64,000 bases of DNA, taken from the NCBI GenBank assembly GCA_963810275.1, contig CAWENF010000026.1, forward strand, positions 1 through 64,000, written 5' to 3'. Position 1 is the first letter of the stretch. Each line of letters starts with the position of its first letter. The notes under the pieces are model-generated. The model saw only the letters and a list, made by a program, of their open reading frames with translations, did no database searches and was not told the origin of the DNA. This DNA comes from an uncultured archaeon (lineage in GTDB: Archaea; Thermoproteota; Bathyarchaeia; Bathyarchaeales; Bathycorpusculaceae). Position numbers and translations under genes: made by a program. This document shows positions 53,510 through 64,000 of this stretch, piece by piece.

Positions 53510-53750
53510 AAACTTCACCTCCTAAAATACTACGGAAAAGTAAACATTAATAATGCCGAATAAGGGCTCATAAACATATGTTGTTGGCGCATGTTAGCAA
53601 CACGCCCCTTTTGCCAATTCCTCACCAAACTAAACATGAAAATATGCGCCCGAAATCAGCTAGCAAATGTAGGGTAGTCCCATAAGGTGGGTAGAAGTTA
53701 ACTTAAATACAGTGAATTATCCACTAAATAGATCATTGAGTACCCACAAG

Positions 53751-55232
53751 ATGAAAATTCTCCTAATTAACCCTCCACAGACGTTTTACGCTGGGTCAGA
53801 GCCACCCGCTGGGAACCTGCCGTTAGGCTTAATGTACATAGCTGCTGTGCTCAAAAAAGCGGGGTATACTGTGGAGATTTTGGACGCCTTCTTTTTAGGC
53901 GCAGACTACTCAGAAGATGATGACGTTATAACCGTTGGACTAAGCAGTGAACAGATAAAACAAGAAATCCAAAAACGCAAACCCGACATAGTGGGCGTGG
54001 CAGGTCCATTCACGTGCCAAGTCGGACATGCAATCGAAGTCTGCAAAGCCACCAAAGAAACCGACCCCAGCATCTTAGTTGTTGTCGGTGGACCACATGT
54101 AACTTTAATGCCCAAAGAATTCCTTTCAGAAAACCTCTGTGTGGATGTGGTAGTGACTGGCGAAGGCGAATATACCATGCTTGAAATCGTCCAACGCTAT
54201 GAAAAGAAAAAGGATTTCAACGGCGTTTTAGGCGTCGCTTATCGAGATGGCGACGAAGTAGTTGTTAACCCACTGCGCCCTTTCATATGCGATCTTGACG
54301 AACTGCCCTATCCCGCCTACGATTTGGTGGACATGGAGCAGTATTTGGGTCCAAGCAAAATCGGCTACCGTAGCTTTCAAGACCGCTCCGTCTCAATGGT
54401 AACGAGCCGTGGCTGCCCGTTTAACTGCTGCTTCTGCGCCGTCCACTTACACATGGGACATAAATTCCGTGCCCACTCTGCGGAGTACGTGCTTGATCAC
54501 ATCCAATACGTGGTGGATAAATACAATGTACGCAACATCTTTTTTGAAGACGACAACTTGACGCTGGATTTGAAGCGGTTTGAAGCCATCTGTGACGGCT
54601 TAATCCAACGTAGACTGCACGTGGGCTGGGAAACCCCCAACGGTGTCCGAGCAGACTGCCTAACAATGGAGCTGCTTAAGAAAATGAAGCGGTCAGGTGT
54701 CAAAAGCATCTTTGTAGGCGTGGAGTCAGGCGACCAGCAAATCCTTGATAACGTCATCTGCAAAAGCCTAAACCTTGACCGTGTTGTCGAGTTTGCCAAA
54801 AACAGCCACGAATTGGGATTGAAGACTGGTGCTTTCTACATTATTGGGTTCCCTGGGGAAACTAAGGAGAATATGCAGCACACCGTTGATTTCGCTTTAA
54901 TGCTTAAACGCAAATATGATGTGGGTATGCATTTGTTTGCCGCGACGCCTAGCTATGGCACAAGGCTTTATGATGAATGTAAAGCTAAAGGATATTTGCC
55001 GGCGGATTTATCTTGGAACAGTTTTGCACAGGCAAGACAAGCCAAGGGGTTGCCATTGATCACTACACCTGATTTTGCGCCGGAGGAGGTCAAGGAGATA
55101 GCTGCGAGGGCTCTGGCGGAATATAAGAAACTATCTTTGTTGGGACACTTTAAGCATCCGCGAAAAACCTTGCGAACGGTATTTGACCAGCCACAGTTGA
55201 TTATAAAGTACATAAAAAACCTTATTTCCTAA
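53751..55232 (+). CDS. Cobalamin-binding radical SAM protein
   Basis: MKILLINPP, PLGLMYIAA, GGPH, GEGE, SRGCPFNCCFC, DDN, GVESG, GFPGET. Confidence 0.9.
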   Translation: MKILLINPPQTFYAGSEPPAGNLPLGLMYIAAVLKKAGYTVEILDAFFLGADYSEDDDVITVGLSSEQIKQEIQKRKPDIVGVAGPFTCQVGHAIEVCKATKETDPSILVVVGGPHVTLMPKEFLSENLCVDVVVTGEGEYTMLEIVQRYEKKKDFNGVLGVAYRDGDEVVVNPLRPFICDLDELPYPAYDLVDMEQYLGPSKIGYRSFQDRSVSMVTSRGCPFNCCFCAVHLHMGHKFRAHSAEYVLDHIQYVVDKYNVRNIFFEDDNLTLDLKRFEAICDGLIQRRLHVGWETPNGVRADCLTMELLKKMKRSGVKSIFVGVESGDQQILDNVICKSLNLDRVVEFAKNSHELGLKTGAFYIIGFPGETKENMQHTVDFALMLKRKYDVGMHLFAATPSYGTRLYDECKAKGYLPADLSWNSFAQARQAKGLPLITTPDFAPEEVKEIAARALAEYKKLSLLGHFKHPRKTLRTVFDQPQLIIKYIKNLIS

Positions 55233-55459: not shown

Positions 55460-56284
55460 TCAAACTTTGACTTTTTTAGCCAGTTTGTCAATGATGCTTT
55501 GGAAAATCAGTTTCCCATCCCCATACCGTAGGTTGCTCTGGACGCTGGTCCAGTTGGGTTGCTGCCACCAGTACATCGCCCGCTCGGGATGCGGCATCAA
55601 ACCGAAAATGTTACCTTCCTTGTTGCATATACCGGCTATGTCGTAGAAGCTGCCATTGGGGTTAGTTGGATAAGCGCCGTCTGCTGTTTTTCCGTTTTTG
55701 TTGCAGTAGCGGAACACAAGCATGTCTTCGTCGATTAGCCGCTTAAGCAGCGCTTCTTCTTTTTCTTTGGGGAATAGCCAGCGGCCTTCGCCGTGTGCTA
55801 TAGGGAGGCTTATGGTTTTGCCCTTGGGGATTGCTTGGGTGAACATGCATTTGCCGCGGTTTTCCTGTTTGAGGTAGATCCATTTACATTTGAACCCTGC
55901 GGGCTCGTTAGTTGTCAGTGTCGCTTCTGGATAGTCGCGTACACCGCTGAAGCCTGGGAGCAAACCATATTCGACCAAGATTTGGAAGCCGTTACAGATG
56001 CCAAGGACTGGGCGGCCTTCGTCGACGAACATTTCGATTTCCTTGCCTAAATTAGCTGCCAAATGCCTTGCGAAAATAACACCTGAACGCACGTAGTCAC
56101 CGTAGCTGAAACCGCCTGGAAAAACAAGCATATCGTAGTCGAGCAGTGTGTGACGTTTGATTAGTTCACTAACCTGCAGTGTTTCAGCTTGGGCACCGAG
56201 TTCAGTGAATGCTCGTTGGGTTTCAGCGTCACAGTTTGTACCGCCAACGCGTAATACGCAGACTTTGATGTCTTTTACTTTCAT
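55460..56284 (-). CDS. purQ: FGAM synthase glutaminase subunit
   Basis: GTNCD, PGGFSYGD, GICNGFQ, AHGEG, NPNGS, MPHPER. Confidence 0.96.
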   Translation of the reverse strand: MKVKDIKVCVLRVGGTNCDAETQRAFTELGAQAETLQVSELIKRHTLLDYDMLVFPGGFSYGDYVRSGVIFARHLAANLGKEIEMFVDEGRPVLGICNGFQILVEYGLLPGFSGVRDYPEATLTTNEPAGFKCKWIYLKQENRGKCMFTQAIPKGKTISLPIAHGEGRWLFPKEKEEALLKRLIDEDMLVFRYCNKNGKTADGAYPTNPNGSFYDIAGICNKEGNIFGLMPHPERAMYWWQQPNWTSVQSNLRYGDGKLIFQSIIDKLAKKVKV

Positions 56285-58668
56285 TGGGAATCCTCCTCGC
56301 TGTTCAATGTCTTTTTCCACGCATACCGCAGTTTATCCAGCGGTGCCTCAACGGCGACTTTGCCTTTTAACCCGACGATTTTGAGTTTGGGTTGCTTAGT
56401 GACTTTGCCTATTGCGGCGCAGTTTTTGCCCTTCATGAGTTTTTTAAAATCAGCTTTGGCTTCTGGGGCGACTTCAATCAGGAAGCGGCTGTTAGACTCC
56501 GAGAACAACAGGAAATCACTGCGTTTGACGCCTTTGGCTGGAACTTCTCGCAAGTCAAGCTCCAACCCTAAACCCGACGCAAACGCCATCTCAGCCGCAG
56601 CAACTGCCAACCCGCCCTCTGACAGGTCGTGACATGCTTTAACCAAGCCTTGGTCGATGGCTTTGGTGACAGCTTTAAAGGTACGTTTGGCTTTTCCGCC
56701 GCGGACTTTGGGCACGGATGCACCAAGGTAGCCTTTGAGTTTGTAGTACTCGCTGCCTCCGAGTTCAGGGTAGGTCTCGCCGATTATGTAGAGCAAATTG
56801 CCTTCTGATTTGAGATCCATGGATGTCGTGACTCCTATGTTGGGTAAGACGCCGACGGCAGTGACTAGCAGGGTTGGCGTGACAGGTCCGAGAGGTGACT
56901 CGTTGTAGAGGCTGTCTTTACCTGAAATAAATGGTGTTTTAAAGAGAATTGAGAAGTCGTAGCAGGCTTCGCAGGCACGAACCAGCGAACCAAGTCGCTC
57001 TGGCTTCTCAGGATTACCCCATACAAAGTTGTCAAGCAACGCGATTCTTCTGCCGCCTACAGCGACGTTGTTGCGGATGGCTTCATCTATGGCTGACGCC
57101 GCCATCCAGTAAGCGTCGATTTTGCCGTAGTTGCAGTTCATGCCGCAGCTAATGGCCAATCCTTTCGCCGAGTCTTCCACAGGCTTGAGAACGGCACCAT
57201 CGTTGGGCCCCGCCAAATCACCCTGAAGCGGCTTGAGAGTTGTGTTGCCTTTGACTTCGTGGTCGTAGGTGCGAACAATGGCTTCTTTGCTGGCAATGTT
57301 AGGCGCTGAGAGAAGCTGCAGAAGGGCTTCGGTAAGGTCTTTTGGCTCCTCAAACACTGGCTCAGCCAGCTTTGGGGTTTCAATGACTGCGACTTTGCTG
57401 CTCTCGCACAAGTTAAACATAAACTCCATGTCGATATCCGCTACAACCTCCTCGTCGAAGGTGAGTTGCAGGCGGCGTTCAGGGATAAGTCGACCTATGG
57501 CGGTTGCTGTTACATCTTCTTTCTCAAAAATTGCCATAACTCGCTCTAAATTCTCGGGCGGAACAGTCATCAACATGCGTTCTTGTGACTCGGAAATGTA
57601 GATTTCCCATGGCGCCAACCCCTGATATTTCAAAGGAACCTTAGCCAAATCCACTCGCACACCGCAGCCGAAGCGCTCTCCGGTTTCGCCAACAGCAGAA
57701 GATAAGCCTCCGCCGCCAATATCAGTAATCGCTGAACCAAGCCCGAGGTCGCGGATTTCCACCACAGTGCGTTTGACTTTTTCTTCCTCGATGGGATCTG
57801 CGATTTGCACGGCGGGGCGCGAGATTACCTCGGATTTCTCGGTGAGTTCCGCTGAGGCGAAGGTTACGCCATGAATGCCGTCTCGTCCAGTTTTGCCGCC
57901 TGACAGCACAATGTAGTCTCCGACTTTGGCATTTTTAGTGTACTTATTTAGGGGCAATAGTCCGATGCAGCCGCAGTAGACGACGACGTTGCCTGTGTAG
58001 GATTCGTCGAAGTATATGGCGCCATTGACTGTGGGGATGCCCATGTTGTTTCCGTACGCGCTGATGCCCGCTGTGACGCCCATGTAGACGTATTTGGGGT
58101 GCTTGACGCCAGGGGGCAACTTTGTGTAATCGTAATCGAGGGGTCCAAAGCCCAAGACATCGGTGCATGCGATGGGATCCCCCCACACTCCTAAGATGTC
58201 ACGGATGACGCCGCCGGTGCCTGTTGCTGCGCCTCCAAACGGCTCCACCGCAGAGGGGTGATTGTGGGTTTCCACTTTTGCGGCGATGCCGTAGCCCCTG
58301 TCAAATTTGATTATCCCCGCGTTATCCTCAAAGACGCTGAAGCACCAGGGGGCTTTGATTTGTTTGGTGGCTTTGGAGATGTAGGTTTTGAAGAGGCTCT
58401 GGATAGTTTTGCCGTTGAGGTAGATTTTGCCTTTGAAGGTTTTGTGACAGCAGTGTTCGCTCCAAGTTTGGCTAATGGTTTGCAGTTCTACGTCGGTTGG
58501 GCTGCGGCTTTCGGTTTTAAAGTAAGTTTGAATTGCTAAAAGCTCATCTAAACTAAAGCCCAAAGCGAGTTCGCTGTTGATTTCGCCAAGCTGCTCTTTC
58601 GTTGCGTTGGCTATGGCGAATTCTAAAACGGGGCTGGTTTTGCGTTGGGTGATAAGGTCAGAGTTCAT
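56281..58668 (-). CDS. purL: FGAM synthase large subunit
   Basis: WSEHC, ETHNHPS, GGAATG, GRDGIHG, SESQER, SGKDS, HDLSEGG. Confidence 0.96.
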   Translation of the reverse strand: MNSDLITQRKTSPVLEFAIANATKEQLGEINSELALGFSLDELLAIQTYFKTESRSPTDVELQTISQTWSEHCCHKTFKGKIYLNGKTIQSLFKTYISKATKQIKAPWCFSVFEDNAGIIKFDRGYGIAAKVETHNHPSAVEPFGGAATGTGGVIRDILGVWGDPIACTDVLGFGPLDYDYTKLPPGVKHPKYVYMGVTAGISAYGNNMGIPTVNGAIYFDESYTGNVVVYCGCIGLLPLNKYTKNAKVGDYIVLSGGKTGRDGIHGVTFASAELTEKSEVISRPAVQIADPIEEEKVKRTVVEIRDLGLGSAITDIGGGGLSSAVGETGERFGCGVRVDLAKVPLKYQGLAPWEIYISESQERMLMTVPPENLERVMAIFEKEDVTATAIGRLIPERRLQLTFDEEVVADIDMEFMFNLCESSKVAVIETPKLAEPVFEEPKDLTEALLQLLSAPNIASKEAIVRTYDHEVKGNTTLKPLQGDLAGPNDGAVLKPVEDSAKGLAISCGMNCNYGKIDAYWMAASAIDEAIRNNVAVGGRRIALLDNFVWGNPEKPERLGSLVRACEACYDFSILFKTPFISGKDSLYNESPLGPVTPTLLVTAVGVLPNIGVTTSMDLKSEGNLLYIIGETYPELGGSEYYKLKGYLGASVPKVRGGKAKRTFKAVTKAIDQGLVKACHDLSEGGLAVAAAEMAFASGLGLELDLREVPAKGVKRSDFLLFSESNSRFLIEVAPEAKADFKKLMKGKNCAAIGKVTKQPKLKIVGLKGKVAVEAPLDKLRYAWKKTLNSEEDSQ

Positions 58669-58916
58669 TTTACTTCAACAACACTTATAGTGTAGTTGTC
58701 TTTGGTTGGGTTAGCGAGGAGACGTTTGCTCATTTCCTCAGCTTTAGCTTTTGCCTCTATGGCTGAAGTTGCTTCTAGAAATACAGTGTAAATTTTGCTT
58801 ACGTCAACGGCTGAAGCGTTGTAGCCTAGTTCGACGAGCATTCGCTGGGTGGTTTCGCCTTCCGGGTTGCTGTGTCCGGGTTTGAGGCTTACTTCGATTT
58901 TAGCGGCGTATTTCAT
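58665..58916 (-). CDS. purS: FGAM synthase PurS subunit
   Basis: LKPG..NPEG, LLANP; overlaps purL start. Confidence 0.92.
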   Translation of the reverse strand: MKYAAKIEVSLKPGHSNPEGETTQRMLVELGYNASAVDVSKIYTVFLEATSAIEAKAKAEEMSKRLLANPTKDNYTISVVEVK

Positions 58917-59178
58917 GAGTCTTTAAATTAAGCTGTAGAGATTTAAACGCTTTCGTCACAAAAAATGCAAAATTCCACGGTTAAAACGGGTGTTCTGTTT
59001 TCCCTATTTGTGTGCGTGCAGAGTTCTACAGCACCACAAGACTAACTGCATCTGCAATTGCTTTTCGGATTCAGGTTGCATTTCAACGTCTGAACACGGT
59101 GGGGCAACAGAGATTTCATGCACTGCCAACATAGACTTTGTTGAAACCGCCGAGGTGCGGTTTGGAAGCATATTGAGT

Positions 59179-60261
59179 TTACGTTAAAACCATATGTTTA
59201 CCCGCGTGCTCTATCTCGACGACACGCTCTTTGTCAGTGACTTCCCCAATAACTTTCGGGTTGAAACTGTCATGCTCCAGTGCGTTCATGGCTTTATCCT
59301 CGTCAGTCTTGCTGACAATTATGCCAAACCCCCAGCCCATGTTAAAGGTTCTAAACATTTCCTCGTCAGTCACAGTTAAGCCCAGCTCAGCAGCGGTTTT
59401 CTGGAGTAACCCGAAAATCGGCTGAGGATTAAAATTGTCGAAGCGGAACCCTATGCCAGGCGAAAACTTAACAAGGTTATTGAATTTCATGTAACTGTCG
59501 CCAGTTATGTGCACGGCACCTTTAACCTTGACTTCCCCTGCCAGCTTGAGAAGCGGCTTGACGTAAATCTTGGTTGGCTCCAACGCCTCCAACCCAACCT
59601 CACTCTCTAAGCCTTCTGGGATGTCTGTGGCTTCATATTTACCGCCCCACCGCTTAAACAGGATTTTACGTGCCATCGTAATCCCGTTGCTATGCAAACC
59701 GTTACTAGCAATCCCAATGATTGGGTCACCGGGTTTGATACCTTCACCCTTTATGATGTTTTGCCGCTCCACTATGCCGATGCAGGAGGCAACCATGTCA
59801 AAACCCGAATTCGGCATTAAGCCCTTGATGATTTCCGCCACGTCGCCTGTTTCGCCATTAACTATTGGGCACCCAGATTGCTCTGCGCCCTCGATTACTC
59901 CTTTGAGCCAATCGTTGACAAGTTTGGGTTCGCTAGCCACTGCGTGAATGTTGTCTGCTAAAGCAAGTGGTTTTGCGCCGCTACGGATAACGTCGTTAAC
60001 CACCATGGCTACGGCGTCTATGCCTATGGTGTCATGTTTACCTGCAAGTTCAGCAAGTAAAACTTTGGTGCCTACACCTTCGATTTCAAGGTCCAAAAAC
60101 GTGTTTTCGCCGATAGGGAAAATGTTGCTGTATGGCAGGTGCATGATACCGCCAAAGCCTATGTGGCGGTAGGTTTGTTTGAGTGTTGAGAGGGCTTTTT
60201 TTGATTCTTGGCGTTGTTCTCGGTTGACGCCTGCGTCGGTGTAGGTAAAGTTTCTAGGCAA
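59179..60261 (-). CDS. purM: AIR synthetase
   Basis: YTDAGV, EGVGTK, GID.VAM.VND, GET, SNGLHSNG, HITG, TFNMG. Confidence 0.95.
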   Translation of the reverse strand: MPRNFTYTDAGVNREQRQESKKALSTLKQTYRHIGFGGIMHLPYSNIFPIGENTFLDLEIEGVGTKVLLAELAGKHDTIGIDAVAMVVNDVIRSGAKPLALADNIHAVASEPKLVNDWLKGVIEGAEQSGCPIVNGETGDVAEIIKGLMPNSGFDMVASCIGIVERQNIIKGEGIKPGDPIIGIASNGLHSNGITMARKILFKRWGGKYEATDIPEGLESEVGLEALEPTKIYVKPLLKLAGEVKVKGAVHITGDSYMKFNNLVKFSPGIGFRFDNFNPQPIFGLLQKTAAELGLTVTDEEMFRTFNMGWGFGIIVSKTDEDKAMNALEHDSFNPKVIGEVTDKERVVEIEHAGKHMVLT

Positions 60262-60541: not shown

Positions 60542-61453
60542 TTAAATCAACACTAAATCGGCTTCGGTTGGTAAACCGTCGCGTGCACCCATTTTCATGA
60601 CGCTTCTGGACGCCACAAAGTTACCGAGGCGGCCACATTCGAAAAGCGGCTTGTTATGGATTAAACCGTAGAGGAAACCCGCATCGAAAGCGTCGCCTGC
60701 ACCTGTGGTGTCCACTGCGGCAACTTTGTAGGGTTGGATTATGTCTTTTTGTTGTCCGTTTGTGAGGTAGCAGCCTTTAGCGCCTAATTTGACGGCAACG
60801 ATTTGTACGCCCATGTTGAGCAAAGCTTGTGCACCTTTGGGTATTTCAGATTCGCCCGTGATTAGCCTGAGTTCCAGCTGGTTGGGCATCATAACAAAAC
60901 TATTCTGGATTATGGGTTCAATGGCGGCTATCCCCTTCTGTGCGTAGAGGGAGCCAGGGTCAAAGCTGACTTTAACGTGCTCGGGCAGAAAGCTCATCAG
61001 TTTTTTCTGGGTACGGAACGATTTTTCGCCCACAAAGGATGAGAGGTGAAGGAATTGTGTATTGGTGACGTAGGGCGGGTTTATTTCCCGGAACTCGATA
61101 GTGTCATTGACGCCGGGGTTAATGTATAGCGCCCGTGCACCTTTCTTATCGACAAAGCCTATACAGACACCACTTTTGCCTTTCGGCGAGCGTACAATTC
61201 CGTCGGTGTCAACTCCTTCCTGTGCGAAGCAGTCAATTTGGAGTTTGCCCTCATGGTCGTCGGCGACTTTGCCGACAAAACCGACTTTGCAGGCCAACCG
61301 TGCCAAGCCAACCATGGTGTTAGCTGCTGAACCCCCGCATGCCTCCGCATAGTCATGGATGAAACTCTCCTCTTCAGGGCCAGCTATCTTGTCGACTTTA
61401 AGCAACGTATCAACGTTGAGTGCTCCAAATCCTACTACATCAAAGCGTGTCAT
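60542..61453 (-). CDS. PfkB/ribokinase-family kinase (EhaT-like)
   Basis: GALNVD, GGSAAN, DPG, KLGAKG, DTTGAGDAF; ATG overlaps the ftr-like stop (ATGA). Confidence 0.9.
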   Translation of the reverse strand: MTRFDVVGFGALNVDTLLKVDKIAGPEEESFIHDYAEACGGSAANTMVGLARLACKVGFVGKVADDHEGKLQIDCFAQEGVDTDGIVRSPKGKSGVCIGFVDKKGARALYINPGVNDTIEFREINPPYVTNTQFLHLSSFVGEKSFRTQKKLMSFLPEHVKVSFDPGSLYAQKGIAAIEPIIQNSFVMMPNQLELRLITGESEIPKGAQALLNMGVQIVAVKLGAKGCYLTNGQQKDIIQPYKVAAVDTTGAGDAFDAGFLYGLIHNKPLFECGRLGNFVASRSVMKMGARDGLPTEADLVLI

Positions 61454-62354
61454 TGGAAAATCTCACTTAGTGGAATCTTGTATTTGCCCAGTTTACCTTC
61501 ATAGTTGCCTGCCGATATACGCACGACACCGGGCACGGCTATTGAGGCTTCGATACCAGCTTTGGTAGCGGCTTTTAGTGCTTCGACAGAGACACCATCG
61601 TAAACGATCTCGGCAATGTAATTCACGCCCTCAGGCACCCAACTTTCCTTACCCAACTTGGCTTTGAGTGAGGGACAGAAGTGGTGATTGGTTGTGGGAC
61701 CGATTTCTGGAAACTTTGTTTCAGGTTTGCTGCCTGCCGAGCAAATGTCAAAAGTAGTTACGACACCCTCAACCTTGTGCATGGCATCCAATGCAGCTCT
61801 GCTAGCGGTTTTAAGCGATTCTTTGCTGGTACACATGAGCCAAAAGTTGCCGCCTGCCACACCCTTAGCATAACCGATGTAGTGCTCGATTACGAAGTCT
61901 GGAACCATCAAGGGAACAACGATAACTTCTCTTCCATTGCGCTGCTCTACCCATTCGTAGCCGTCGCCGCAGTGACCCACGCGGGGCATCATGTCCAGCT
62001 TGCCCTCTGCGTTGGTAGGGCATCGTAGATGGCGGTGAAGGGTTTGACGAGGATGTCTTGGCGGATGCGGTAGCTGAGTTCCTTCTCGAATTTTTCAAGG
62101 GATTGCTGGAAGGTTTTTTTTGGATCAATTTGCCCCCAGAACTGCAAAATCGCACCGACGCGGTGGTCTGGTGTGTCTTCTTCGCTGAGGTAGCGTTCGA
62201 CGCCGCCCTCAGTCCTACCAATGACGGTGGCAGGGGTGGCAGTTGAGTCCGACGCAGCTTTGCATAGTGTCTCCACATCGTCTGCTGTCACTATTATTCG
62301 GCAGTAAATGCCTTCGAAAGCTTCAATGTAAGTATCATCAATTTTTTTGTCCAT
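61450..62354 (-). CDS. Formylmethanofuran:H4MPT formyltransferase paralog (EhaS-like), frameshift near 62010
   Basis: [49 protein letters not shown]; ORFs 61989..62354 and 61450..61992 join with one missing base. Confidence 0.88.
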
Positions 62355-63435
62355 TTATCCCAGTCTCCCTATGCTTACTCCACGAACTCGTCTTTCGGTA
62401 GTCGCTTGAGTCTTTAGTAATCGAATCCATGTTTTTGGATGTTACTATTTGAACTTTCGACAACCCATCTGCTGTTACCTTTTGGAATTGTCGCAGTAAA
62501 TCTTCGTCCACACCACTCTGCTGCAAGGCTTCTGGGCTCCAGTTCGCGACCAAACTTAGGGCTTCGACTTTACCCTGCTTGCAGAAAACGTCAGCAAGGA
62601 CTGCAGTCACCAAGTTACTTTCAGATTGAACAGCGATTTCGGCGTTTTTGACGGCATAGCTGTTGCCGTTAAACGACACCGACAAACCCCCGCCCTCAAG
62701 AACCAAACGGAAGGCTTCGACATCGGTTATGCTGTCACCCACATACATGACATCTTTGAGGTCACAATTGTGGCGTTTAGCTGCGTCTCGGATGGATTCG
62801 GCTTTCTGCTCACCTCCAACGGTGACTATGTTTAAGAATTTGCCCACAGACATCTTTGGCAAGATTTCCCAAAAGATTTCGTCAAACCGCTGCAAAATCT
62901 CTTGGTCACGATCACAGAAATCCTCTGCCGAAGCTGCGCCCTGTGGGATGTCTATTAGGCGGGTTTGGGCAATTTCCTGTACGATTTCCCTGAGTTGTTC
63001 GCGCTCTTTGGGGGTGATTGGGATTTTGTCCAGCGACACTTTGGTGCAGTACGTGTTTTGGTAGGGAAAACCTACTGCTTTGCAAAGGGCGCTAATATAG
63101 TGCTCGTAGCTTGTGGAAACTATGTATGGGTCAGAGATGCCCAAGACGTGCTGGAGCATGGTTTGGCTACCGGCTATTAAGAGGATGTTCTGCGCCGAGA
63201 AATCCTCCATCATCTGGTCGGTGACTCCGTAGGCTTTGAAAAAGGGCAAAATCAGCTTAAGAGTGCTGCCAGCCGTGTATCCGGACTTATAAAATACGTC
63301 GGCTAAAACATCGTCGTACTTGCTGATATTAGCGAAAAAACTATCTCCCTTTGGGATGAAGTGTTCTGCCAGTTCGTAGGCGTTATCGTTTTTGCTTATG
63401 GGTCCTTCGCAGTCGGAGACGAAGAGGCGCTTCAC
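62355..63435 (-). CDS. HAD-superfamily protein (EhaR-like), frameshift near the C-terminus
   Basis: FVSDCEGPISKNDNAYEL, VSTSY, K, YVGDSITD, SFNGN; GTG overlaps the purD stop; removing one base near 62388 gives RKTVRGVSIGRLG* abutting the ftr ATG. Confidence 0.8.
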
Positions 63436-64000
63436 TTCTGCCGCCTCAACTGCTCCATGTGTCGTATGCTGTTTGCGATGTGGTTTTGGTCTGCGATGTC
63501 GGTGCGATTCCAAAGTGCACCGCCTGTGATAGCTTTGGCGCCTTCCTGGCTGATAATTTGGGCTTCCTCGATGCTGTCACCGATTCCTAGAATGCCAATG
63601 GCTCTGGATTTAAGGGCGTAGTTTTTGCCGTCGCGTACCTCCATGGAGCCGGGGTAGATGCGGATTTTGTCTCCGTATTTTGCGGTTAGGGCTTCGGCTT
63701 TAATAAGGTCAACTGCTCCGCCAACTGCTGCTTTGTCGAGTTTGTCTGGGAATGCTTCGGAGTAGCCTCCATAGCCGGGCGGAACCTTGTAGGTCAATAC
63801 CGTGGCGGATTTCTCAACTGCCACAGAAGTGAGTGTACCGTCTACCATGCGCAGGCAGAGATCAGCAAAGTCGTCTTTTAGCACGGGCAGCACATTCATG
63901 ATTTCGGGGTCACCAGGGCGGCTGTTAATTTCCAAAATCTTAATTCCTTTACCCGTATGCATAAACGCAAGGTACAATGGGACTCCTCTGAGCGCCGTGT
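63432..64000 (-). CDS. purD: Phosphoribosylamine-glycine ligase, C-terminal part (5' end beyond window)
   Basis: LEINSRPGDPE (compare E.N.RFGDPE), SRA, RTDIA motifs; pur context. Confidence 0.88.
   Translation of the reverse strand, partial: TALRGVPLYLAFMHTGKGIKILEINSRPGDPEIMNVLPVLKDDFADLCLRMVDGTLTSVAVEKSATVLTYKVPPGYGGYSEAFPDKLDKAAVGGAVDLIKAEALTAKYGDKIRIYPGSMEVRDGKNYALKSRAIGILGIGDSIEEAQIISQEGAKAITGGALWNRTDIADQNHIANSIRHMEQLRRQK

What the first reader, a model, noticed from the sequence alone, without database searches (positions are those of the whole stretch)
60542..64000. purD - HAD (EhaR-like) - Ftr paralog (EhaS-like) - PfkB kinase (EhaT-like) operon: candidate folate-independent GAR formylation system replacing PurN/PurT
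Seen: four genes are tightly coupled (purD TGA/GTG overlap at 63432-63435; HAD TAA directly followed by the ftr ATG at 62354; ftr/pfkB ATGA overlap at 61450-61453). They are followed by purM, purS, purL and purQ, so steps 2, 4 and 5 of purine synthesis are present, and no purN or purT (step 3, GAR formylation) appears in the visible cluster. Known: Ftr moves a formyl group between the primary amine of methanofuran and N5 of H4MPT, and GAR formylation is also N-formylation of a primary amine. From memory (to verify), the same three families end the Methanothermobacter eha operon as ehaR/S/T with no assigned hydrogenase role, and some H4MPT-using archaea lack recognisable PurN/PurT. No hydrogenase genes are nearby here. 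Inference: the trio is a purine module using formyl-H4MPT or formyl-methanofuran as donor. One route: HAD dephosphorylates GAR, the Ftr paralog formylates the riboside, and PfkB rephosphorylates it to FGAR. Alternatively Ftr acts directly on GAR, with HAD and kinase as carrier or repair enzymes.
Basis: partly seen in the sequence, partly recalled or inferred. Interest (0 to 1): 0.9.

Follow-up and report, generated by a model that had tools for sequence, protein, structure and literature searches.

The report
Candidate missing purine formylation module
Three genes (a phosphatase-like protein, a second copy of a methanogen-type formyl-transfer enzyme and a ribose-type kinase) sit in this archaeon's purine operon where the usual enzyme for one purine-building step is missing, and they most likely carry out that step.

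Summary
The genes are there: purF-purD-[HAD "EhaR"-Ftr paralog-PfkB]-purM-purS-purL-purQ on the minus strand of a Bathyarchaeia genome. That genome has no PurN, PurT or PurH. It has a separate canonical Ftr, FwdC and two PurP copies. In this assembly the Ftr paralog and the HAD tail are frameshifted. Near-identical public contigs and all relatives have them intact, so these are probably assembly errors.

In 151 genomes of the class, the Ftr paralog (59) always comes with EhaR (65). Only one of those 59 also has a PurN-type gene, and none has a PurT-like gene. Most of the other purine-making genomes carry PurN-type (59) or PurT-like (9) genes instead.

In two families Ftr2 is replaced, in the same operon slot, by a divergent PurN-like gene, while EhaR and PfkB stay (purF-purD-PurNlike-ehaR-pfkB-folD). 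Gene fusions exist: PurN-like+EhaR, PfkB+PurN-like, PHP+PurN-like, and a PurT-like ATP-grasp+EhaR.

Reading: this is a three-part GAR formylation module with an exchangeable formyltransferase. The role of the phosphatase/kinase pair is inferred, most likely a phosphate off/on cycle. Nothing here is biochemical. I found no paper making this link.

The parts
63432..64000 (-). purD, C-terminal 188 codons. The gene runs on to about 64817 of the contig, outside the window, and purF lies upstream at 64899-66437.
   Evidence: TIGR00877 scores 76 bits on this part. A frameshift near the purD N-terminus is shown.
62355..63435 (-). EhaR-like HAD-IB protein, 359 aa in the corrected frame. Motif I reads D-C-E-G-P, and the conserved C-terminal tail reads RVRGVSIGRLG. 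The assembly has one extra base near 62391-62392, so the assembled ORF ends at 62338.
   Evidence: Family scans are. The intact twin P0001 is, and the reads. The closest solved structure is 1Y8A (AF1437), with E 1.3e-28 and TM 0.79/0.90.
61989..62354 (-). Ftr paralog (Ftr2), N-terminal (distal) lobe, 121 codons up to the frameshift.
   Evidence: PF01913 gives E 9.9e-33. One base is missing near 62011 compared with public contigs.
61450..61992 (-). Ftr paralog (Ftr2), C-terminal (proximal) lobe, 180 codons. Together with the part above it makes one gene of about 301 codons.
   Evidence: PF02741 gives E 9.2e-55. Relatives have single open frames of 295-323 aa.
60542..61453 (-). PfkB-family, ribokinase-like kinase (EhaT-like), 303 aa.
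   Evidence: PF00294 scores 180 bits. TIGR02152 ribokinase scores 166 bits, below its cut-off of 299.65.
59179..60261 (-). purM
   Evidence: TIGR00878 scores 265 bits, over its cut-off.
58665..58916 (-). purS
   Evidence: TIGR00302 scores 65 bits, over its cut-off.
56281..58668 (-). purL
   Evidence: TIGR01736 scores 676 bits, over its cut-off.
55460..56320 (-). purQ
   Evidence: NF002252 scores 311 bits, over its cut-off.

Best explanation
The three genes between purD and purM form the module that converts GAR (glycinamide ribonucleotide) to FGAR (formyl-GAR) in this organism. It stands in for PurN and PurT. The confidence figure below is for this core claim.

The formyl-transferring part is the Ftr paralog (Ftr2). 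By homology it should take the formyl group from N5-formyl-H4MPT or formyl-methanofuran. Both are made here by the archaeal Wood-Ljungdahl branch: FwdC, canonical Ftr1 and CODH/ACS genes are present. GAR's primary amine would take the place of methanofuran's amine.

The HAD protein (EhaR) and the PfkB kinase are obligate partners of this kind of formyltransferase, whatever the donor. My preferred mechanism has an absolute probability of about 0.4.

1. EhaR takes the 5'-phosphate off GAR, either hydrolysing it or holding it on its Asp.
2. The transferase formylates the riboside.
3. PfkB, using ATP, puts the phosphate back.

This traps the product as FGAR and makes a near-equilibrium formyl transfer irreversible at the price of one ATP. 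That is the same price as PurT pays.

Shown: the gene content, the linkage, the complementarity with PurN/PurT, the swap of transferases and the fusions. Inferred: the donor, the acceptor's phosphorylation state and the order of steps.
For: 1. Position. The order is purF-purD-ehaR-ftr2-pfkB-purM-S-L-Q, with start/stop overlaps. This is the slot of the one missing step.

2. Own genome. PF00551 gave 0 hits. PurT gave only weak hits (42-46 bits) in a 1101-aa frame that I take to be CarB. PurH gave 0 hits. There are two PurP copies, FwdC at 241 bits and a second, canonical Ftr.

3. Linkage in genomes. In 80 genome loci found with an EhaR alignment, 71 show purD-ehaR-ftr2-pfkB in a row. Four more show ftr2 right after ehaR but are cut, split or lack upstream sequence. 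In G031 the pair ftr2-pfkB has moved, and it lies beside purM-L-Q.

4. Linkage in metagenomes. In 80 metagenome loci, 48 have ftr2 right after ehaR. Four of these come from a deeply separate Ftr2 clade with a canonical purD and purF alongside.

5. Class sample of 151 genomes in 30 families.
- EhaR is in 65, and Ftr2 in 59. All 59 are among the 65.
- PF00551 is in 64 and overlaps EhaR in 5.
- PurT-like is in 11 and overlaps EhaR in 1, and that one is really PurK.
- Of 137 genomes with PurL: 63 have EhaR, 59 have PF00551 only, 9 have PurT-like only, and 6 have none.
- Family f13 alone holds 2 with EhaR+Ftr2, 6 with PurT-like, 1 with PurN and 1 with none.
- Genomes of the PurT-like and PurN-like kind keep only Ftr1.

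6. In-place swap. G243 (f58) and G247 (f14) have purF-purD-PurNlike-ehaR-pfkB-folD on one strand. G098 has purF-purD-PurNlike, with folD-pfkB and ehaR within about 15 kb. The PurN-like protein's best solved relatives are GAR transformylases (E 2.6e-12), ahead of PurU (1.8e-5).

7. Fusions. These are PurN-like+EhaR (P0185, P0277, P0278), PfkB+PurN-like (P0272), PHP phosphoesterase+PurN-like (P0276) and ATP-grasp+EhaR (P0193, P0201). The ATP-grasp's best solved relatives are PurT (E 1.5e-6 and 2.9e-6).

8. Catalytic sets are kept. In 96 trios, D8, E10, S107, S109, K211, D234 and D238 of EhaR are invariant. So is E249 of Ftr2, which aligns with the Glu of the E-I-V-I-N-G stretch of solved Ftr. 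N13, D15, G40-G41 and the T250-G-A-G-D254 stretch of PfkB are also invariant.

9. Literature (passages only).
- Brown 2011 could not find a GAR formyltransferase in Archaeoglobi, Methanopyrus and four species that I know as Methanobacteriales.
- Chadwick 2022 finds the divergent Ftr2 in Archaeoglobales, M. kandleri, Methanothermobacter and ANME-1. It also says ANME-1 lacks both PurN and PurT. It draws no connection between the two facts.
Against: - There is no biochemical or genetic test of any member. The donor and the acceptor are inferred.
- Canonical PurN and PurT need no phosphatase or kinase, so the need for two partners is unexplained, and my mechanism is one of several possible.
- Co-occurrence exists. 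G312 has the Ftr2 trio plus a PurN-type gene with folD and AICARFT. Chadwick 2022 (passages) reports Ftr2 in ANME-2a/2b, which also have PurN.
- G028 is 98% complete and has purS-L-Q, but none of EhaR, Ftr2, PF00551 or PurT-like. No PurD was found with the query used.
- In metagenome contigs, none of the 6 PurN-like trios and none of the 4 ATP-grasp+EhaR pairs has a pur gene in the sequence fetched. One of them (L190) has bacterial-looking neighbours, by my reading.
- Of 56 diverse EhaR relatives, 11 lack the Asp nucleophile and the C-terminal tail, so the protein is not a phosphatase everywhere.
- The organism has PurP, so it can use formate for the other formylation step.
- In this assembly two of the three genes are broken.
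- All counts come from one class, whose members are related. The sound unit is the family or the switch between solutions, not the genome.
Confidence: 0.72

Rival explanations
1. Same module and same step, but Ftr2 (or the PurN-like enzyme) formylates GAR itself. EhaR and PfkB are then helpers. EhaR might bind or present the phosphoribosyl substrate through its HAD phosphate site. The kinase might recover glycinamide riboside or formylglycinamide riboside lost through phosphatase activity. This is a variant inside the core claim above, not an addition to it.
For: Known GAR transformylases act on the 5'-phosphate form (established knowledge of PurN and PurT). Of 56 EhaR relatives, 11 have lost the catalytic Asp, which fits a binding role. 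EhaR stays with purF-purD when ftr2-pfkB move away (L097, L099, L100).
Against: The full HAD catalytic set and the kinase motifs are invariant in all 96 pur-linked trios. An unrelated phosphoesterase (PHP) is also found fused to the PurN-like enzyme, which points to phosphatase chemistry as the required function. A pure salvage kinase would not be expected fused to the transferase (P0272).
Confidence: 0.3
2. The trio does not formylate GAR. Instead it releases formate from formyl-H4MPT or formyl-methanofuran, as a deformylase (in the way PurU or the Fhc complex do). The formate feeds formate-dependent ATP-grasp enzymes, and one of the two PurP paralogs is the real GAR formyltransferase.
For: Two adjacent PurP-like genes and no PurH are found in this genome. 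PurU is a PurN homologue, and FhcD is an Ftr homologue (6S6Y is among the hits). Brown 2011 (passages) leaves the second PurP cluster without a function.
Against: Lineages with a PurT-like gene would need more formate, yet they lack the trio. G098, G243 and G247 keep EhaR and PfkB together with folD, and G098 and G247 also carry a split purH. That route needs no free formate. The PurN-like protein matches PurN well ahead of PurU (76.6 against 36-42 bits). Brown 2011 (passages) describes PurP duplicates in Crenarchaeota and a purT-like gene in the Sulfolobales.
Confidence: 0.07
3. The trio belongs to another process: accessory subunits of the Eha hydrogenase as first annotated, a step of H4MPT or methanofuran biosynthesis, or ribose/PRPP supply. 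Its place in pur operons would then reflect co-regulation only.
For: Kaster 2011 (passages) reports that ehaS and ehaT are co-transcribed with ehaA-R and treats them as Eha subunits. The kinase scores best against ribokinase and ribose-1-phosphate kinase models. Some EhaR-PfkB pairs lie far from any pur gene or transferase (L166, L179).
Against: No hydrogenase gene was recognised near the trio in this contig. A cofactor-synthesis or ribose-supply role does not predict mutual exclusion with PurN/PurT. It also does not predict replacement of Ftr2 by a PurN-like gene in the same slot, or fusions to PurN-like and PurT-like domains.
Confidence: 0.1
4. In this particular genome the module is decaying. 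purD, ehaR and ftr2 are true pseudogenes, and the organism takes up purines.
For: There are three frameshifts within about 3.4 kb in the assembly.
Against: Near-identical contigs in three public runs carry the extra base at 62011, and one run carries the corrected 62392. The intact twin protein P0001 differs by one residue apart from the shifted tail. Apart from the single-base shifts the frames are clean, and the rest of the operon is intact.
Confidence: 0.1

Closest known systems
PurN (folate-dependent GAR transformylase, EC 2.1.2.2)
   Same: It carries out the same proposed reaction, GAR to FGAR. In two families a divergent PurN-like gene sits in the very slot that Ftr2 occupies here.
   Different: Ftr2 has an unrelated fold and, by homology, a different C1 carrier. 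PurN works alone, whereas this module always includes a HAD protein and a PfkB kinase.
PurT (formate- and ATP-dependent GAR transformylase)
   Same: It has the same place in the pathway and, under my mechanism, the same cost of one ATP. It is the alternative found in sister lineages that lack the trio.
   Different: PurT is an ATP-grasp enzyme that uses free formate through formyl phosphate. It has no partners. It was not found in this genome.
Canonical Ftr (formylmethanofuran:H4MPT formyltransferase; PDB 1FTR, 1M5H, 1M5S)
   Same: Ftr2 has the same two-lobe fold (PF01913 plus PF02741), and the Glu in the E-I-V motif is conserved.
   Different: Ftr2 is a separate clade (100/100 support). It scores 155-180 bits against solved Ftr, compared with 296-300 bits for the genome's own Ftr1. 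It lies in pur operons rather than with C1-pathway genes. Its proposed acceptor is GAR, not methanofuran or H4MPT.
EhaR/EhaS/EhaT at the end of the Methanothermobacter eha operon
   Same: They belong to the same three families in one transcription unit. Kaster 2011 (passages) describes S and T. JGI's name and an automatic cluster name from Methanobacteriota (a lead only) cover R.
   Different: There they follow hydrogenase genes and were read as hydrogenase subunits. Here they follow purD, and no hydrogenase gene was recognised nearby. I could not fetch the methanogen genes to compare them directly.
AF1437 of Archaeoglobus fulgidus (PDB 1Y8A, hypothetical protein)
   Same: It is the only solved member of the EhaR family, with E 1.3e-28 and TM 0.79/0.90. 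It comes from a genus that Brown 2011 lists as lacking PurN and PurT.
   Different: Its entry names no function or ligand, and I did not see its genomic context.
Kinase/phosphatase pairs that act around a central step, such as HldE kinase with GmhB HAD phosphatase in heptose synthesis (recalled, not from a call)
   Same: A PfkB-family kinase and a HAD phosphatase work on the same sugar phosphate within one short pathway.
   Different: There the pair moves a phosphate from C7 to C1 of a heptose. Here the pair would remove and restore the same 5'-phosphate around a formyl transfer. This is only an analogy.

Membership tests
Ftr family (PF01913 + PF02741; NCBIfam NF002554) | Both lobes of the Ftr fold are present. 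| tested here: met
   PF01913 gives E 9.9e-33 on the N-terminal ORF, and PF02741 gives E 9.2e-55 on the C-terminal ORF. NF002554 scores 98.9 and 220.2 bits on the two pieces.
Ftr family (PF01913 + PF02741; NCBIfam NF002554) | The catalytic Glu is present. It is Glu245 of M. kandleri Ftr; that number is recalled, not from a call. | tested here: met
   E249 is invariant in 96 Ftr2 sequences. It aligns with the Glu of the E-I-V-I-N-G stretch in 1M5S and 1M5H.
Canonical methyl-branch Ftr (orthologue of the characterised enzymes) | The protein groups with characterised Ftr and is the genome's only copy. | tested here: not met
   A second copy on C5 scores 296-300 bits against solved Ftr, compared with 155-180 bits for Ftr2. 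The tree splits the two clades with 100/100 support.
PurN (TIGR00639 / PF00551) | A Formyl_trans_N domain is present in the locus or the genome. | tested here: not met
   There were 0 hits in the genome, and 0 of 31 genomes of the order sample had a hit.
PurT (TIGR01142) | A full-length PurT-type ATP-grasp protein is present. | tested here: not met
   Only hits of 42-46 bits in a 1101-aa frame, which I take to be CarB, were found. None of the 31 relatives scored over the cut-off.
HAD superfamily phosphatase (subfamily IB, phosphoserine-phosphatase-like) | Motifs I-IV are present: the Asp nucleophile, Ser/Thr, Lys and the acidic pair. | tested here: met
   D8, S107/S109, K211, D234 and D238 are invariant in 96 sequences. 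By fold, the model is closest to 1Y8A and then to SerB and ThrH.
HAD superfamily phosphatase (subfamily IB, phosphoserine-phosphatase-like) | The general acid/base at the nucleophile+2 position is Asp (DxD). | tested here: not met
   Glu is at this position: the D-x-E-G-P motif is invariant in the 96 trio sequences and present in most representatives. That DxE occurs in active HAD phosphatases such as enolase-phosphatase is recalled, not tested.
Ribokinase (TIGR02152 equivalog) | The score exceeds the curated cut-off. | tested here: not met
   The score is 166 bits against a cut-off of 299.65. The protein is a PfkB family member (180 bits) but not an assigned ribokinase.
Eha hydrogenase subunits | The genes are encoded with Eha membrane and [NiFe] hydrogenase genes. 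| tested here: not met
   The neighbours are pur genes, a B12/radical-SAM gene and CODH/ACS-like genes (the last by my reading of translations).
GAR formyltransferase (by function) | The enzyme converts GAR to FGAR. | not testable with these tools
   Only the gene context and the distribution across genomes support this. An enzyme assay or a complementation test is needed.

The most novel reading that the evidence does not exclude
One step of de novo purine synthesis runs through a nucleoside-level intermediate. A HAD enzyme strips (or transiently holds) the 5'-phosphate of GAR, and a formyltransferase formylates glycinamide riboside. That transferase belongs to any of three unrelated folds: Ftr-type, a divergent PurN-type or a PurT-like ATP-grasp. 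A dedicated PfkB kinase then restores the phosphate. The result is an ATP-driven ratchet that lets low-energy formyl donors such as N5-formyl-H4MPT feed purine synthesis. It would also explain the orphan EhaR/S/T genes of methanogens and the missing GAR transformylase of Archaeoglobi, Methanobacteriales, Methanopyrus and ANME-1.
Probability: 0.35. Interest if true: 0.95.

Novelty: new variant of a known kind. Interest (0 to 1): 0.85.

Why it matters
Brown 2011 listed seven archaeal species, including the purine prototroph Methanothermobacter, with no recognisable enzyme for GAR formylation. Chadwick 2022 restated the gap for ANME-1.

This locus and its relatives offer a concrete, testable candidate with strong comparative support. 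The same candidate would give a function to the orphan EhaR/EhaS/EhaT genes and to the solved but unassigned structure 1Y8A. It would also tie purine synthesis directly to the H4MPT/methanofuran C1 pool of Wood-Ljungdahl archaea.

The constant pairing of a phosphatase-like protein and a kinase with three unrelated transferases is not explained by textbook purine biochemistry. If the phosphate off/on reading holds, it would be a new kind of reaction logic in a core pathway.

The PurN-like version uses folate, so it can be tested directly in E. coli purN purT mutants.

Tried and rejected
- Complex prediction. I submitted Ftr2, PfkB and EhaR of one relative, each with a 96-row alignment. The verdict was 'no answer' (score 0.00). 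This is not evidence either way.
- First alignment of 56 diverse EhaR relatives (A1). It was too divergent for the search for related loci, so I used a narrower 25-row alignment (A2). All of the best 80 genome loci were then Bathyarchaeia, so that scan says nothing about other phyla.
- Archaea outside the window's phylum. The genome search could only be centred on handles I held, so Methanobacteriota, Archaeoglobi and ANME-1 were never searched by me. What I say about them rests on passages from three papers and on automatic cluster names (leads only).
- PurM as a pathway marker at E <= 1e-45. The threshold was too strict: family f11 scored 0 of 6 although it has the operon. I used PurL instead.
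- G028. I first read it as lacking the pathway. Searches show purS-L-Q, so it remains an unexplained exception.
- Reads. All four runs are low-depth contigs, and none spans the whole stretch. The 62392 correction rests on a single contig. Parts without cover are not evidence.
- The weak 'PurT-like' hit in G227 turned out to be PurK. I did not check the other PurT-like hits one by one, except G034.
- N-terminal loop of the EhaR-linked PurN-like clade. It reads G-W-F-S-x-G-R-D-x-A-A-R in place of S-G-x-G-S-N. I considered it as a sign of lost phosphate binding and dropped the idea. The Arg could bind phosphate, and the role of the PurN loop is only recalled.
- Literature searches that found no paper linking Ftr2/EhaS or EhaR to GAR formylation. 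The library does not cover subscription journals. Brown 2011's Additional File 1 and Chadwick 2022's S2 Data may list these genes genome by genome, and I did not see them.
-, a search for ehaS/ehaT/ehaR, was swamped by unrelated words.

Full report
WHAT IS IN THE SEQUENCE

The window is the first 64 kb of a 102-kb contig. The genome is 2.26 Mb in 28 contigs and 92.6% complete. NCBI names of close homologues place it in Bathyarchaeia.

On the minus strand lie purD (63432 onward, running out of the window) and then an HAD-family gene starting at GTG 63435. Next come an Ftr-family gene starting at ATG 62354 and a PfkB kinase (61453-60542). After these come purM, purS, purL and purQ. Beyond the window the contig continues with the rest of purD and with purF. 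After a flavodoxin-like gene comes a set of genes that I read by eye as archaeal CODH/ACS.

BREAKS IN THE ASSEMBLY

As assembled, the Ftr gene is two ORFs in different frames: 121 aa carrying the distal lobe and 180 aa carrying the proximal lobe. The last 24 codons of the HAD ORF are out of frame. purD has a further shift near its N-terminus.

Contigs of four public runs were laid on 61300-63600.
- X1, X2 and X4 each show one extra base behind 62011.
- X2 shows one base fewer at 62392.
- Both changes restore the frames.

A protein in the public collection (P0001) is identical to the HAD except for one residue and for an intact tail ending RVRGVSIGRLG. In 27 of 30 relatives the gene is a single open frame of 295-323 aa. 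I take the breaks to be assembly errors (about 0.85) and treat the genes as functional in this lineage.

THE REST OF THE GENOME

- No Formyl_trans_N domain.
- No PurT; the only hits are weak (42-46 bits), in a 1101-aa frame that I take to be CarB.
- No PurH.
- Two adjacent PurP genes.
- FwdC at 241 bits.
- A second Ftr gene on contig C5.

The C5 copy scores 296-300 bits against the three solved archaeal Ftr enzymes. The operon-type paralog, taken from an intact same-genus relative, scores 155-180 bits.

I built a tree of 9 Ftr1 and 21 Ftr2 sequences. I had picked every sixth row of the 96-row alignment, plus five sequences from other loci; three Ftr1 loci and two Ftr2 loci (L129, L131) gave no ORF under my pattern and were left out. 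The tree separates the two groups with 100/100 support. The operon gene is therefore a divergent paralog (Ftr2), not the methyl-branch enzyme.

LINKAGE TO PUR GENES

A scan of one genome per species with an EhaR alignment found at least 550 genomes with a relative. The best 80 were kept, and all are Bathyarchaeia by title, apart from two titled Nitrososphaerota and one 3.6-kb contig titled Thorarchaeota. The gene order in those 80 is:
- 71 read purD-ehaR-ftr2-pfkB in a row.
- 2 are cut after ftr2.
- 1 has ftr2 in two pieces.
- 1 lacks upstream sequence.
- 1 is cut after ehaR.
- 1 has ftr2 about 1 kb further on.
- 3 (L097, L099, L100) keep purF-purD-ehaR but have unrelated genes downstream.

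In the genome that holds L097, the pair ftr2-pfkB lies beside purM-L-Q elsewhere.

A metagenome scan with a different EhaR subgroup gave 80 more loci.
- 48 have ftr2 right after ehaR. Four of these belong to a deeply separate Ftr2 clade and have a canonical purD (564 bits) and purF alongside.
- 6 read pfkB-PurNlike-ehaR.
- 4 read ATP-grasp-ehaR.
- 5 have ehaR and pfkB adjacent with no transferase between them.
- The rest are cut or different.

DISTRIBUTION ACROSS GENOMES

In 31 genomes of the order, none has PurN and none has PurT over the cut-off.

In a sample of 201 genomes of the phylum:
- EhaR is in 26, all within the window's class (26 of 29).
- PurN is in 70.
- PurT-like genes are in 46.

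In a sample of 151 genomes of the class (30 families, all at least 85% complete):
- EhaR is in 65, and Ftr2 is in 59, all of them among the 65.
- Of the six with EhaR but without Ftr2, four have a divergent PurN-like gene. It lies next to ehaR in G243 and G247, about 12 kb away in G098, and on another contig in G067. The other two (G344, G023) have ehaR at a contig end.
- Formyl_trans_N is in 64 and overlaps EhaR in five: those four plus G312.
- PurT-like is in 11 and overlaps EhaR in one, G227, where the gene is really PurK (466 bits).
- PurL is in 137. Of these, 63 have EhaR, 59 have Formyl_trans_N only, 9 have PurT-like only and 6 have none.

Relatives are not independent, so the family level matters more than the genome count.
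- EhaR occurs in 14 of the 30 families.
- Family f13 holds all three solutions in different genera: 2, 6 and 1 of 10 genomes.
- Family f58 holds both Ftr2 (3 of 4) and PurN-like (1 of 4).
- The PurT-like genomes G034 and G142 and the PurN-like genomes G098 and G067 have only the Ftr1 type, at 37-39% identity. G059, in the same family as G034, has Ftr2 (60%) next to ehaR.

THE SWAP AND THE FUSIONS

G243 and G247 carry purF-purD-PurNlike-ehaR-pfkB-folD on one strand. G247 has split purH genes beside it. The labels were checked on the G098 proteins by NCBIfam: FolD 335 bits, AICARFT 336, IMPCH 247, PurN 76.6 (below the cut-off of 150), PurD 248.5.

So the transferase and its C1 system were exchanged in place, while EhaR and PfkB stayed. 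The PurN-like protein is closest to solved GAR transformylases.

A search of 1.84 billion representative proteins with EhaR, followed up by further scans, turned up these fused genes:
- PurN-like+EhaR (P0185, P0277, P0278).
- PfkB+PurN-like (P0272).
- PHP phosphoesterase+PurN-like (P0276).
- A 530-590-residue ATP-grasp domain+EhaR (P0193, P0201).

The best solved relatives of that ATP-grasp domain are PurT from Pyrococcus and E. coli, ahead of PurK. The matches are weak and local.

EhaR is therefore tied to three unrelated kinds of enzyme, two of which resemble the two known GAR transformylases.

THE PARTNER PROTEINS

EhaR models confidently (pLDDT 94.6). It is closest to AF1437 (1Y8A) and then to phosphoserine phosphatases and ThrH.

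In 96 trios the HAD motifs are invariant, with Glu instead of Asp two residues after the nucleophile. The last nine or so residues, a conserved tail ending in Leu-Gly, are the only low-confidence part of the model.

Of 56 diverse relatives, 11 lack the nucleophile, have a degenerate motif IV, and lack the tail as well. One such group includes a protein that NCBI names as Methanomethylophilaceae.

The kinase keeps the N-x-D and G-G motifs and the T-G-A-G-D motif. Its best family scores are ribokinase and ribose-1-phosphate kinase, all below their cut-offs.

HOW IT MOST LIKELY WORKS

Shown: the position in the operon, the absence of the known enzymes, the mutual exclusion with them, the in-place swap and the fusions. 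Together these make the core claim, that the module converts GAR to FGAR, about 0.72 likely.

Inferred:
- The donor is N5-formyl-H4MPT or formyl-methanofuran for Ftr2, by homology.
- The acceptor's amine plays the part that methanofuran's amine plays in the reverse Ftr reaction. This is an established property of Ftr, recalled rather than taken from a call.
- The phosphatase and the kinase act on the 5'-phosphate around the transfer.

The transferase sits between the two partners in both gene orders and in both kinds of fusion. An unrelated phosphoesterase can also be fused to it. That is why I prefer the phosphate off/on route (about 0.4) over a helper role (about 0.3).

The energetic argument is my own inference from recalled values: formyl-H4MPT is a low-energy donor, so an ATP-driven trap would help.

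A link to Eha in methanogens would make sense if Eha feeds the formyl-methanofuran withdrawn for biosynthesis. This rests on recalled work on Eha's anaplerotic role, which I did not read here.

AGAINST THE READING

- There is no experiment on any member.
- G312 has both systems.
- ANME-2a/2b have PurN and Ftr2, according to Chadwick 2022 (passages).
- G028 has purS-L-Q but none of the candidates.
- PurN-like and ATP-grasp modules in metagenome contigs have no pur neighbours in the sequence fetched.
- Some EhaR relatives are catalytically dead.
- Canonical enzymes need no partners.

NOVELTY

Brown 2011 (passages) reports the missing GAR formyltransferase in two Archaeoglobi, M. kandleri and four species printed as Methanomicrobiales. 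It names Methanosphaera, Methanobrevibacter and Methanothermobacter among them, which I know as Methanobacteriales.

Chadwick 2022 (passages) describes Ftr2 in Archaeoglobales, M. kandleri, Methanothermobacter and ANME-1/2a/2b. Elsewhere in the same paper it notes the lack of PurN and PurT in ANME-1, Archaeoglobales and Methanobacteriales. It does not connect the two.

Kaster 2011 (passages) treats EhaS and EhaT as hydrogenase subunits.

Seven searches found no paper that links these genes to GAR formylation. Subscription journals and supplementary files were not covered.

I rate the finding a new variant of a known kind: a non-homologous, three-part replacement for a known enzyme. If the phosphate cycle proves true, it would be a new reaction logic.

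Noticed in passing
window 55460-60261 compared with loci L025-L104: In this genome purM-S-L-Q follow pfkB on the same strand. In nearly all relatives, including one of the same genus, the block is inverted and converges on pfkB. This is either a real inversion or an assembly artefact.
   Followed up: no
contig C26, about 64.3-64.9 kb (outside the window); window 62392 and 62011: There are three single-base frameshifts within about 3.4 kb, in purD, ehaR and ftr2. This suggests a raised indel error rate in this assembly. Other genes of the genome may be split in the same way.
   Followed up: partly
contig C26 67748-74832 (outside the window): Five large ORFs read by eye as the archaeal CODH/ACS genes, plus CooC-like ATPases. 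They lie just upstream of purF on the same strand. No family scan was run on them.
   Followed up: no
window 53712-55232 (+): A B12-binding radical SAM protein of 506 aa lies next to purQ. Its best family matches are HpnJ-like and P-methyltransferase-like, all far below their cut-offs.
   Followed up: no
EhaR C-terminus, window about 62355-62400; alignments A1 and A4: A conserved, flexible C-terminal tail, S-x3-R-K-x-V-R-G-x3-G-x-L-G, ends exactly at the stop codon. It is lost together with the catalytic Asp in 11 of 56 relatives. It may close the active site or dock into a partner.
   Followed up: partly
L006 compared with L007 (same genus): Two EhaR types occur within one genus. They are only about 60% identical, while the adjacent Ftr2 and PfkB are 85-88% identical. 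This could reflect exchange or fast evolution of ehaR alone.
   Followed up: no
L117:5637-7037, L097:8592-10001, contig C26 63432-64817: The PurD of EhaR-carrying Bathyarchaeia is divergent. Its N-terminal motif reads S-Y-G-A-R-E-V-A, and TIGR00877 scores 248.5 bits, below the cut-off of 288. The PurT-like lineage (G034) has a PurD only 36% identical to it. Another EhaR lineage (L131) has a canonical PurD at 564 bits.
   Followed up: partly
L190 (metagenome contig): A pfkB-PurNlike-ehaR trio has neighbours that look bacterial to me: a XerD-like recombinase and sugar ABC transporter genes. Automatic cluster names also place EhaR-like clusters in Thermodesulfobacteriota (a lead only).
   Followed up: no
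L166, L179 (metagenome contigs): EhaR and PfkB are adjacent, with no formyltransferase or pur gene within the flanks. The pair may be the stable core of the system.
   Followed up: no
G028 (L216): This genome is 98% complete and of the same order. It has purS-L-Q, but no EhaR, Ftr2, PurN-type or PurT-like gene was found. No PurD was found with the query used. Either the purF-purD-trio block is unassembled, or the organism has yet another solution.
   Followed up: partly
contig C21 27757-29401 of the genome: There are two adjacent PurP-like genes and no PurH. This is the arrangement that Brown 2011 describes for Crenarchaeota. The role of the second copy is unknown.
   Followed up: no
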